Source: a virus
Lineage: Duplodnaviria; Heunggongvirae; Uroviricota; Caudoviricetes
Direction: 5' to 3' (one strand)
Length of the DNA: 36,177 nucleotides
IMG/VR virus record: IMGVR_UViG_3300025133_006513
Span: 117,289-153,465 of that record
The stretch's first letter is position 1, and the number at the start of each line of letters is the position of its first letter. Under the pieces are notes generated by a model that was given only the letters and a program-made list of their open reading frames with translations, did no database searches and was not told where the DNA came from. A program made the position numbers and the translations under genes. Below, one piece after another: positions 28,698-30,417 of this stretch.

Positions 28698-29846
28698 TGG
28701 AATGTGCCGTGGTGTGACGTTTTGTTACCTACTGCCCTGTCCTGCCCCATCCAGGTCTAACGGTCTGGATGGGGATTGCTTCGTGTGATGTGGTGATGTG
28801 TGCTGTTTTATCGTGTCCTGTGTTGCTCTGTTTTGCCCCTTCCAAGTTTCACCGCTTGGCTGGGGATTGCTTGGTGAATTGTGACGTCATGTGGTGATCT
28901 GTGCTGCTTGATAGTCTCCTGTCCTGCCCCATCCAGGTTTAACGGTCTGGCTGGGGATTGCTTTGTGTTGCGTAATGCTCTGCGGTGTGTTGCAGTTCTG
29001 TGTTCTGTTCTGTAGTTGCCCCATCCAGGTCTAACGGTCTGGCTGGGGATTGCTTACTGCTCTGGCGGGTATTGTTTTGCAGTGTTTGGCCTCGTCCTGC
29101 ACTGGCGACACTTGTCCTGTTCTGCCATTGCCCCGTCCAGGTCTAGCGGTCTGGACGGGGATTGCTTTCTGCGGCGTGATGTTTTGTGGAGGGATGTCCG
29201 GGGATGTTGTGCCCTGTGATTTGATTGCCCCATCCAGGTCTAGCGGTCTGGCTGGGGATTGCTTAATGTGATGTTTTGTACTGTCCTGGCGTGTCCTATC
29301 CTGTAATGTACTGCCCCATCCAAGTTTCACCGCTTGGCTGGGGATTGCTTAATGACCTGTGATGTAATGTTTTGGCTTGTGTTGCCTTGTGCTGCGATTG
29401 CCCCGTCCAAGTTTCACCGCTTGGCTGGGGATTGCTTTCTGTGATGTATTGTGATGCCGGGTAACGCCCTGTATTGCCCTGTCATTGCCCCTTCCAGGTC
29501 TAACGGTCTGGCTGGGGATTGCTTTTTGTTTTGCGTCAAAGTGACATGTGCTGTAGTGTGACGTTTTGTATTGTGATTGCCCCATCCAGGTCTAACGGTC
29601 TGGCTGGGGATTGCTTATCGTAGTGTACGGTTCGGTCGTGCCGTGTCTGTTGTTCCCGTGTGATGTCCGACGATTGCCCCATCCAAGTTTCACCGCTTGG
29701 CTGGGGATTGCTTGCTGTCTTGTTCTGTAGGATTTTGTAGTCTTAACAGGGCATGTGTACTGCCCCATCCAAGTTTCACCACTTGGCTGGGGATTGTTTA
29801 ATGCACTGCTCTGTTTTGCGGAGTATTATATTGGTGTGTGTAGTCG
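28698..29846 (+). CRISPR. CRISPR-like guide array 1 (non-canonical): 12 x 39-nt hairpin repeats and 13 periodic TGY/NN segments
   Basis: Repeats start at 28743, 28834, 28925, 29017, 29129, 29226, 29312, 29399, 29486, 29578, 29675, 29761; consensus TGCCCC(A)TCCA(G/A)GT(C/T)T(A/C)AC(G/C)G(T/C)(C/T)TGG(C)TGGGGATTGCTT; internal spacers 52,52,53,73,58,47,48,48,53,58,47 nt. Confidence 0.9.
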
Positions 29847-29848
29847 TA

Positions 29849-29883
29849 GCCCTGACTGGTTCGCTGGTCAGGGTTTTTCTTTT
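29849..29883 (+). terminator. Terminator closing array 1
   Basis: ccctgactgg-ttcg-ctggtcaggg followed by tttttctttt. Confidence 0.85.
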
Positions 29884-29899
29884 ACTCAGGAGGTGTGGT

Positions 29900-30121
29900 A
29901 TGCCACCACTTAAAGAACCTAAAGTCCGTACAACGATCTGCTTGTCGGCGGATCTGAAGCGACGTATGGACGCGGCAGCGTTAAGGGTTAACTGGTCGGC
30001 GACAGCCGCCGAGGCTTTCGAAGCCACATTAGCTGCGCTTGTTACAGAAAAGGAAGATAAAGCAACAGCTATGCAGTTAATATCAACCCCCGCAGGCACG
30101 GTCTGCTGGGCATCGATGTAG
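29900..30121 (+). CDS. Ribbon-helix-helix (CopG/Arc/MetJ-like) DNA-binding protein between sub-arrays
   Basis: AGGAGG RBS; KVRTTICLSADLKRRMDAAALRVNWSATAAEAF fits beta-alpha-alpha RHH pattern. Confidence 0.65.
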   Translation: MPPLKEPKVRTTICLSADLKRRMDAAALRVNWSATAAEAFEATLAALVTEKEDKATAMQLISTPAGTVCWASM

Positions 30122-30123
30122 TT

Positions 30124-30417
30124 TGCCCCATCCAAGTCTCACCGCTTGGTTGGGGATTGCTTTAAGTTTTGTGCTGTCTTGTATTGAACTGAAATGTTCT
30201 GCCCTGTTTTGTTATGCCCCTTCCAAGTTTCACCGCTTGGCTGGGGATTGCTTAATGCATTGATCTGCGCTGTGCGGTACTGTTTTGCTATGCCCTGCTA
30301 TGTGGATTGTTGTGTTGCTATTGCCCCATCCAGGTCTGACGGTCTGGATGGGGATTGCTTTGTGTAATGGCCTGCTCGGGCGTGTTATGTCTACAGTTGT
30401 TCTGTTCTGTTGTGTTA
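30124..30417 (+). CRISPR. CRISPR-like guide array 2: 3 repeats and 3 periodic TGY/NN segments
   Basis: Repeats at 30124, 30215, 30322; segments of 52, 68 and 57 nt in 5-nt register. Confidence 0.9.

What the first reader, a model, noticed from the sequence alone, without database searches (positions are those of the whole stretch)
28698..30417. Hypothesis: guides read targets as NN-x triplets, potentially skipping the wobble base of target codons
If each NN pairs with two target bases and one base is skipped (my recollection of the VIPR mechanism), the target has codon periodicity. Read as codon positions 1-2, several guides give protein-like strings: 29351-29398 = [KN]P[DE][KN][FL]LVLA[DE]; 28873-28924 = G[IM][DE][HQ]GSA[FL][SR]PP; 30254-30321 = [KN][IM]SAAT[FL]YPYGVVY; 30163-30214 = Y[FL]AL[IM]T[KN]SP[FL]Y. 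Such targeting would be immune to synonymous escape mutations. Caveat: TA/TG dinucleotides are 18/179 (~10%), between the random expectation (12.5%) and what coding positions 1-2 would give (lower), so composition alone does not support it. CC is enriched (19/179).
Basis: inference. Interest (0 to 1): 0.75.

Follow-up and report, generated by a model that had tools for sequence, protein, structure and literature searches.

The report
Phage VIPR guides; one reads hsdM
This stretch is the guide-RNA array of a marine phage's VIPR system (a CRISPR-related system described in 2026 preprints); its "pair two bases, skip the wobble base" code is already published, but one guide here spells a conserved motif of bacterial type I restriction-modification methylase genes, a kind of target those preprints do not mention.

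Summary
There are 16 tracts on the + strand (28698-30418), all in one 5-nt register. Each is NN(UGY NN)n with 9-15 NN, separated by 15 copies of a 39-nt hairpin.

The idea itself is not new. The 1-nt skip rule, wobble alignment and resistance to synonymous escape are published for VIPR (bioRxiv 10.64898/2026.04.26.720920, .720927, 2026.10.15.759431). This scan has also noted VIPR guides in at least 17 other genomes.

The locus belongs to that family. The 328-aa protein upstream folds as a Cas7-like RAMP and matches SUSP1 Vipr (hhalign 98%). It differs from the type example in using UGY rather than GGY. The G-loop residue that reads G1 in SUSP1 (Asp) is Ala here.

The direct test succeeded for one guide. 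G0 (28698-28742), read as NNx, gives 75 matches in 67 of 401 Pseudomonadota genomes; the reversed control gives 0. Skips of 0, 2 and 3 give 1, 0 and 0 matching genomes in a subset of 61 where skip 1 gives 7. Of 26 fetched hits, 25 lie in hsdM, on the sense strand, with the skipped base at codon position 3 (motif KAGEFYTPP).

NN composition alone does not decide the question.

The parts
27071..28057 (+). vipr: 328-aa Cas7-like RAMP, the guide-binding protein
   Evidence: AF2 model pLDDT 83, pTM 0.80. All 50 listed Foldseek PDB matches (22 with E <= 0.001) are chains of CRISPR effector complexes, mostly type III Csm/Cmr, also type VII and Cascade. hhalign of its family profile against SUSP1 Vipr gives 98.1%, E 1.2e-13, 179 columns. 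130 homologues found.
28077..28697 (+). vap-like accessory gene, 206 aa, no known fold or family
   Evidence: Conserved directly after vipr in the two closest loci: 42% identity in L003 and 29% in L004. No Pfam family. No word-index homologue.
28698..28742 (+). Guide G0: 9 NN (AA GC GG GA TT TA AC CC CC). Starts right after the vap stop codon and is followed by repeat 1. Decodes to K-A-G-E-F-Y-T-P-P of hsdM.
28743..29799 (+). Array 1: 12 hairpin repeats (39 nt) with guides G1-G11 between them (10-15 NN each). Guides lie at 28782-28833, 28873-28924, 28964-29016, 29056-29128, 29168-29225, 29265-29311, 29351-29398, 29438-29485, 29525-29577, 29617-29674 and 29714-29760.
29800..29880 (+). Trailing tract G12 (10 NN, degenerate linkers), followed by a terminator-like GC hairpin with a T run instead of the repeat
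   Evidence: (family D5)
29900..30121 (+). 73-aa ORF between the two arrays; no Pfam family
30124..30360 (+). Array 2: 3 hairpin repeats with guides G13 (30163-30214, 11 NN) and G14 (30254-30321, 14 NN)
30361..30450 (+). Trailing tract G15 (12 NN), followed by a second terminator-like hairpin that is 72% identical to the one after G12

Best explanation
The region is the vrRNA array of a VIPR system carried by an uncultured marine phage; the contig is 153 kb. Inferred by homology: Vipr protomers (27071-28057) bind one per 5-nt unit, hold each UGY linker, and present the two variable bases. Those two bases pair with two target DNA bases while one target base is flipped out, so a guide reads NNxNNx. 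Shown here for guide G0: its nine NN equal codon positions 1-2 of the motif K-A-G-E-F-Y-T-P-P at the start of the catalytic domain of HsdM, the type I R-M methylase. The skipped base falls on the wobble position. One 9-unit guide therefore matches hsdM genes in many unrelated genomes, whatever their codon usage. G0 has the same sense as the hsdM mRNA, so it can pair only with the template DNA strand and not with the message. That fits DNA binding and a transcription block. Inferred: in an infected cell G0-Vipr sits inside hsdM and silences the operon. In the one viral contig examined the order is hsdM-hsdS-hsdR, so silencing would be polar. This would serve against a host-borne or mobile-element-borne restriction system. 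The targets of the other 15 guides are unknown.
For: Family membership. Distant relatives in IMG/VR carry classical GGY/NN arrays next to the gene. Code. Transcribed strand and 3' hairpin. Published rule. G0 test: exact 9/9 match in two viral contigs, inside HsdM_N+N6_Mtase genes. In 401 Pseudomonadota genomes at <=1 mismatch there were 75 matches in 67 genomes, 13 of them exact; about 2 were expected by chance and the reversed-pattern control gave 0. In the same first 61 genomes, skip 0 gave 1 matching genome, skip 1 gave 7, skip 2 gave 0 and skip 3 gave 0. In Bacteroidota, 12 of 61 genomes matched against 1 control hit. 25 of 26 fetched hits lie in ~340-600-aa open frames (some cut by contig ends), on the same strand, with the skip at codon position 3. 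Identity to consensus across the footprint is 1.00, 0.95 and 0.47 for codon positions 1, 2 and 3. Pfam gave HsdM in 9 of 9 tested. The exact-match hsdM is the first gene of a full hsdM-hsdS-hsdR operon next to two GmrSD genes in contig L075. There are no self-targets under any skip length, and the phage has no N6_Mtase gene.
Against: Only 1 of 16 guides has a demonstrable target. Exact 9-NN seeds of G1, G4, G7, G9, G13 and G14 in IMG/VR, JGI metagenomes or GTDB genomes returned only chance-level hits that do not extend. G2, G5, G6, G7, G9 and G13 were at control level in Pseudomonadota samples. No second guide hits within 10 kb of 12 exact hsdM loci. NN composition fits codon positions 1-2 better than the other phases but no better than uniform. 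G0 is the shortest guide, has no repeat upstream, and its expression is unproven. The host is unknown. Restriction enzyme already present at infection would not be removed by silencing.
Confidence: 0.8

Rival explanations
1. The G0-hsdM match is real, but the purpose is conflict between mobile elements rather than escape from host restriction. The targeted S+M (+R) module is itself mobile and sits on prophage-like contigs and in defence islands. G0 would then silence a rival element's module, as published VIPR guides silence satellites and prophages.
For: The exact-match HsdM clade is 69-88% identical across genomes with GC from 41 to 56% and shares no flanking genes. Two exact hits are on IMG/VR viral contigs. 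Published natural targets are competing elements.
Against: In L096 the module sits between housekeeping genes (hom, rnhA, acn) with no mobile-element genes nearby. No other guide hits those contigs.
Confidence: 0.3
2. The G0 match is a coincidence or a relic. G0 would be the non-functional 3' end of the vap transcript, and the UGY clade may follow a different rule that my searches could not detect.
For: 15 of 16 guides have no target. In the viral collection a single 18-base hit family is what chance predicts. Linkers in the closest relatives L003 and L004 are far more degenerate.
Against: A random 18-base gapped word would need to coincide with a motif present in 17% of sampled genomes. I estimate the odds at about 1e-5 per guide; that figure is my own estimate, not a computed value. 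The count is 75 hits against 0 in the control, and six other guides run the same way gave 0-3 hits against 0-4 in their controls. The sense-strand, wobble-phase placement is exactly what the published rule predicts.
Confidence: 0.07
3. The guides act on RNA (antisense to mRNA) rather than on DNA.
For: Chance seed hits of G4, G13 and G14 fall mostly antisense to real genes in wobble phase, 12 of 17 independent hits. SUSP1 VIPR can bind ssRNA in vitro.
Against: G0, the only guide with a real target, has the same sense as the hsdM mRNA and cannot pair with it. The antisense bias of the chance hits is largely predicted by NN composition, with expected shares of 0.37-0.49. Those hits lie in unrelated genes such as PGI, HemA, an MBL-fold protein, SurE and SpaA.
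Confidence: 0.05
4. This is an ordinary CRISPR-like array whose spacers pair contiguously.
For: Hairpin repeats of 39 nt with variable inserts of 45-73 nt resemble a CRISPR array. The neighbouring protein is Cas7-like.
Against: The inserts are not free sequence: three of every five positions are fixed as UGY. G0 read contiguously gives one chance hit. No other cas genes are present. The protein is a Vipr homologue.
Confidence: 0.02

Closest known systems
Type II VIPR of Escherichia phage SUSP1 and the Pseudomonas fulva prophage (bioRxiv 10.64898/2026.04.26.720920 and .720927)
   Same: A phage-borne vipr RAMP gene plus a small accessory gene. Guide tracts of 9-16 five-nt units, each followed by a conserved structured 3' tail, arranged in arrays beside the genes. 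1-nt skip with the skipped base at the wobble position. No self-targets. The residues that hold G2 and Y3 in SUSP1 (R138, W178, R179) align with R237, W277 and R278 here.
   Different: The linker is UGY, not GGY. The G1-reading residues H17 and D177 align with N63 and A276, and the family consensus at the latter is Ser. The protein is 328 aa against 195 aa, with an insertion and an N-terminal arm. The tail is a plain 11-bp hairpin with no pseudoknot predicted. There are 16 tracts instead of 4. The one identified target is a restriction-modification gene, not a satellite, prophage regulator or vipr gene.
VIPR types with 'related consensus' repeats (NNNGG, YNNNG, NNNNG) named in the same preprint
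   Same: YNNUG fits the YNNNG class. The closest relatives L003 and L004 look like NNNNG.
   Different: The preprint text available to me gives no sequences, targets or type assignment for these, so I could not place this locus in types I-VII. No skip rule is reported for them in the text I read.
Cas7 backbone subunits of class 1 CRISPR effectors (Csm3, Cmr4, Cas7)
   Same: RRM core, G-loop and thumb. One protomer per repeat unit of the guide, with periodic base flipping.
   Different: Sequence identity of 6-13% only. CRISPR flips one guide base in six and pairs five. There is no repeat-spacer adaptation module here.
Phage anti-restriction proteins (Ocr, ArdA) and the phage ICP1 CRISPR-Cas that attacks the host PLE island (from my own knowledge)
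   Same: If the anti-defence reading holds, this is a phage-borne weapon aimed at a host or island defence function.
   Different: Ocr and ArdA are DNA-mimic proteins that inhibit the enzyme. ICP1 cleaves DNA with contiguous spacers. Here the proposed action is RNA-guided silencing of the methylase gene through a codon-aware gapped code.

Membership tests
VIPR system | Vipr protein: minimal RAMP (RRM core, G-loop, thumb) homologous to characterised Vipr | tested here: met
   hhalign of the family profile against SUSP1 Vipr (NC_028808, 28474-29061, minus strand): 98.1%, E 1.2e-13, including G-loop GVGAWR against GVGDWR. Foldseek hits are chains of CRISPR effector complexes only.
VIPR system | vrRNA made of five-nt units: conserved trinucleotide alternating with hypervariable NN, 9-16 units | tested here: met
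   16 tracts of 9-15 NN in one register. All 16 dinucleotides are used (4-19 times each), while the linker is 80-88% fixed.
VIPR system | Linker consensus GGY (type II definition) | tested here: not met
   Position 1 is T in 132 of 164 linkers and G in 13. This falls under the preprint's 'related consensus' YNNNG.
VIPR system | Invariant structured 3' tail after each tract | tested here: met
   39-nt repeat follows 14 of 16 tracts. It has 11 pairs with covariation at one pair and + strand G.U pairs. The two trailing tracts end in terminator-like hairpins instead.
VIPR system | 1-nt skip rule: NN pair with two target bases and one base is skipped | tested here: met
   G0 only. Matching genomes among the same 61 for skip 0, 1, 2 and 3 were 1, 7, 0 and 0. 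Over 401 genomes, 75 matches against 0 in the control. Untested for the other guides because no targets were found.
VIPR system | Targets in coding sequence with the skip aligned to the wobble position | tested here: met
   25 of 26 fetched G0 hits have the skip at codon position 3 of hsdM.
VIPR system | Accessory vap gene beside vipr | tested here: inconclusive
   A 206-aa gene is conserved next to vipr in the two nearest loci. It has no recognisable DNA-binding or nuclease domain and was not compared with vap1-6.
VIPR system | No self-targeting | tested here: met
   The best own-genome matches are 64-85% of bases (mostly 67-75%) at every skip length, which is background.
VIPR system | vrRNA expression, RNP formation and transcriptional silencing | not testable with these tools
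   No RNA run holds the locus.
CRISPR-Cas | Contiguous spacers, cas1/cas2 adaptation genes, multi-subunit or single effector | tested here: not met
   Inserts are pentamer-coded. The neighbouring ORFs have no Cas families.

The most novel reading that the evidence does not exclude
A lytic marine phage uses VIPR as RNA-guided anti-restriction. A nine-unit guide reads only codon positions 1-2 of the most conserved HsdM motif. One guide would therefore silence type I R-M operons (hsdM first, then hsdS and hsdR by polarity) across many hosts and codon usages, and the host could not escape by synonymous change. In addition, the Asp-to-Ala/Ser and His-to-Asn changes in Vipr would be the switch that turns a GGY reader into a UGY reader.
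Probability: 0.35. Interest if true: 0.75.

Novelty: new member of a known kind. Interest (0 to 1): 0.5.

Why it matters
The hypothesis as written is already in the literature, so it earns no credit for novelty. Three things here go beyond the preprints I could read.

First, the 1-nt skip and wobble rule is shown to hold for a guide from a UGY-type clade. For that clade I found no published target data.

Second, the linker change from G1 to U goes with replacement of the two residues that read G1 in the SUSP1 structure. That gives a testable handle on how Vipr reads its linker.

Third, the only decodable guide points at a restriction-modification methylase. This suggests that phages may aim VIPR at defence genes as well as at rival elements. 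It also shows how far a codon-aware guide can reach: 17-20% of sampled genomes in two phyla at one mismatch or fewer.

Tried and rejected
- **Near relatives.** Megablast of the window against INPHARED phages found none. tblastn of vap found none.
- **Self-targets.** None at skip 0-3.
- **Exact 9-NN seeds, 1-nt skip.**
  - G1 in IMG/VR: 0 hits.
  - G7 in IMG/VR: one family, in non-coding AT-rich DNA, with the tenth NN mismatched.
  - G14 in IMG/VR: 0 hits. In GTDB genomes: 6 hits in SurE, SpaA and others, none extending.
  - G4 in JGI metagenomes: 10 hits in unrelated genes, with the extension at chance.
  - G13 in IMG/VR: 7 hits, including a tape-measure NGEFVMRAK motif at 9/11 NN. I rejected it as a target because both end NN fail and bacterial genomes show no excess.
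  - G9 in IMG/VR: 1 hit, out of phase.
- **Local scans of fetched DNA.** All guides against 743 kb of related-phage and related-VIPR loci gave background at every skip length. All guides against 208 kb around hsdM hits gave only G0.
- **Sampled Pseudomonadota genomes.** G2, G5, G6, G7, G9 and G13 were at control level.
- **Composition.** Likelihood tests favour the wobble phase over the other phases by 7-22 log units, but it is equal to uniform.
- **Phase of chance hits.** About 14 of 20 independent hits fall in wobble phase on one strand or the other. That is not clearly beyond what composition predicts.
- **Relatives' guides.** L003 and L004 linkers were too degenerate to parse with confidence, so I did not scan them.
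- **Other checks.** Rfam: no family. Sequencing runs: no RNA holder listed. Contigs of four marine runs were identical over the array, so no guide turnover was seen.
- **VIPR type.** Could not be assigned, because no supplementary files are held.
- **Guides never searched outside the loci fetched.** G3, G8, G10, G11, G12 and G15.

Full report
**What is there.**
The window is the last 36 kb of a 153,465-bp single-contig phage record with GC 53.6%. The same DNA occurs with 100% identity in a JGI marine metagenome and in Logan marine runs. At least part of the stretch is held by marine metagenome runs of 16 studies, though only three runs hold half its sampled words or more. No cultured phage is close; the portal is 25-27% identical to those of Vibrio and Salmonella phages.

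Between 28698 and 30450 the + strand carries 15 copies of a 39-nt repeat and 16 variable tracts. Every tract keeps one pentamer register from its first base, with no indels: NN, then (linker NN) repeated, giving 9-15 NN. The linker is T 80%, G 88%, Y 86%. All 16 dinucleotides occur at the NN positions. TG-to-TG distances peak sharply at multiples of five.

The repeat folds into an 11-bp hairpin. One pair covaries (G-C in 8 copies, A-U in 7). Its G.U pairs exist only if the + strand is the RNA. No Rfam family matches.

**What it is.**
VIPR comprises a phage-borne minimal RAMP (Vipr) and vrRNAs of alternating GGY/NN units followed by a structured tail. It recognises dsDNA by pairing each NN with two target bases and skipping one. 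Cryo-EM shows the thumb displacing G1, G2 and Y3 of the guide and a single x3 of the target. The later preprint shows that the skipped base matches the wobble position of an essential satellite gene, which blocks escape by mutation. The hypothesis in this finding is therefore already published. This scan has also met VIPR guides in at least 17 other genomes.

**Is this locus a member?**
The 328-aa ORF at 27071-28057 has 130 homologues. It gives a confident model (pLDDT 83), and all 50 listed PDB matches (22 with E <= 0.001) are chains of CRISPR effector complexes, mostly type III Csm/Cmr.

I located the SUSP1 VIPR locus in NC_028808 from its flanking GGY/NN tracts. The profile of the family found here aligns to SUSP1 Vipr at 98.1% probability, E 1.2e-13. 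More distant family members in IMG/VR sit next to textbook GGY/NN arrays.

The 206-aa gene that follows is conserved beside vipr in the two nearest loci. Those loci also have hairpin repeats ending in YTGCTT and pentamer tracts with looser linkers.

The locus meets every testable defining feature except the strict GGY consensus. Its UGY linker fits the "YNNNG" class the preprint mentions without detail.

One correlation is worth noting. In SUSP1, G1 is read by H17 and D177, G2 by R138 and W178, and Y3 by R179 among others. In the alignment R138, W178 and R179 are kept (R237, W277, R278), while H17 and D177 become N63 and A276; the family consensus at the latter is Ser. That pattern matches a linker whose second and third bases are unchanged and whose first is U. 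This is inference, not a test.

**Testing the rule here.**
No guide matches the phage's own genome above background at skip 0-3.

Collection scans take only exact patterns, so I used 9-NN seeds and judged hits by whether the remaining NN extended. Seeds from G1, G7, G14, G4, G13 and G9 gave zero hits or numbers expected by chance. The hits did not extend and lay in unrelated genes. Scanning all guides locally over 743 kb of related-phage and related-VIPR DNA gave background at every skip length.

**The G0 result.**
G0, the 9-NN tract right after the vap stop codon, behaved differently. Its full pattern hit two IMG/VR contigs exactly. Both hits lie inside ~500-aa genes with HsdM_N and N6_Mtase domains, on the sense strand, at the peptide KAGEFYTPP, with the skipped base at codon position 3.

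One family in that collection is what chance would give, so I tested the pattern on whole genomes with the tool's built-in reversed-pattern control. In 401 Pseudomonadota genomes at one mismatch or fewer there were 75 matches in 67 genomes, 13 of them exact. About 2 were expected by chance, and the control gave none.

In the first 61 of those genomes the counts of matching genomes by skip length were:

| Skip length | Matching genomes (of 61) |
|---|---|
| 0 | 1 (a chance-level hit) |
| 1 | 7 |
| 2 | 0 |
| 3 | 0 |

In 61 Bacteroidota genomes, 12 matched at one mismatch (TPQ or TPR variants) against one control hit.

Of 26 fetched hits, 25 are in long ORFs carrying (K/N)AGEFYTP(P/Q/R/H), all on the sense strand and all in wobble phase. 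The skipped positions are 47% identical to consensus, against 95-100% for the read positions. Nine of nine tested are HsdM by Pfam.

Six other guides run through the same procedure stayed at control level, so the procedure does not produce hits by itself. I regard this as decisive for G0. The hits are best explained by a gap of one, they are coding, and the skipped base is the wobble base.

**What G0 would do.**
G0 has the sense of the hsdM message, so it can pair only with the template DNA strand. This agrees with DNA binding rather than antisense RNA action.

The exact-match HsdM clade is 69-88% identical across genomes of GC 41-56% and shares no flanks, so the module is mobile. In one viral contig it heads a complete hsdM-hsdS-hsdR operon beside two GmrSD genes. 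In one bacterial genome it is an S+M pair among housekeeping genes. The phage has no N6_Mtase gene of its own.

My preferred reading is silencing of a type I R-M operon, either the host's or a co-resident element's. I cannot tell which. I also note that silencing does not remove enzyme already made. Neither VIPR preprint that I searched for these terms mentions R-M or methylase targets.

**What remains open.**
NN composition favours the wobble phase over the other two phases by 7-22 log units, but it is no better than a uniform model. So "protein-like strings" cannot be claimed from composition.

Chance seed hits of G4, G13 and G14 fall mostly antisense to real genes in wobble phase. Composition predicts much of that bias. 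Near relatives of the phage are withheld from the collections, so sister-phage targets, which other follow-ups of this scan often found, could not be examined. Expression is untested. The array is identical in four marine runs.

**Verdict.**
The locus is a new, UGY-type member of the VIPR family. One of its guides points at hsdM, and that target class is the part worth following up.

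Noticed in passing
window 28702-28725 and 29546-29569: G0 and G9 share a 24-nt stretch that is 92% identical. The differences fall mostly in NN positions (AA/CA, GG/AG, TA/AT). This suggests new guides arise by duplication and point change. G9 itself has no hsdM-like or other detectable target.
   Followed up: partly
window about 27013-27055 and 30449-30491: A ~43-nt direct repeat (2 differences) brackets the vipr-vap-array cassette. It shows up as a contig piece laid twice. The cassette may be a mobile unit.
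   Followed up: partly
window 17873-17969: A coding tandem repeat (period 15/45, 96% matches) on the + strand also triggered my pentamer detector on the minus strand. It lies inside an ORF and is not a guide tract.
   Followed up: no
L075 1855-13448 (IMGVR_UViG_2537562015_000005): Defence island: hsdM, hsdS, a UPF0149/SEC-C gene, hsdR, a YgjP-like peptidase, then two GmrSD-type restriction endonuclease genes. Its hsdM matches G0 exactly.
   Followed up: partly
L096 8868-10975 and homologues L091-L102: A half-size HsdS (about 197 aa) sits directly upstream of the G0-matching HsdM, with no hsdR nearby in L096. The M protein is 69-88% identical across genomes of GC 41-56% that share no flanks, so the S+M module is mobile.
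   Followed up: partly
L003 1-230 and 1933-2127; L004 1875-2115: The nearest vipr relatives have arrays on both sides of the gene pair, hairpin repeats ending in YTGCTT, and tracts in which only the G of each pentamer is kept (NNNNG-like).
   Followed up: partly
window 30506-31408: The product downstream of the array carries a precomputed weak AcrVA2-like Pfam hit on the metagenome copy. My own Pfam scan of the 300-aa ORF found nothing at E <= 0.01.
   Followed up: partly
L069 5752-5777 and relatives L068, L071, L072: The nine central NN of G13, read antisense, spell NGEFVMRAK of the conserved C-terminal motif of a 1,700-aa tape-measure/M23 peptidase protein. Both end NN fail and there is no excess in genomes, so I treated it as chance.
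   Followed up: yes
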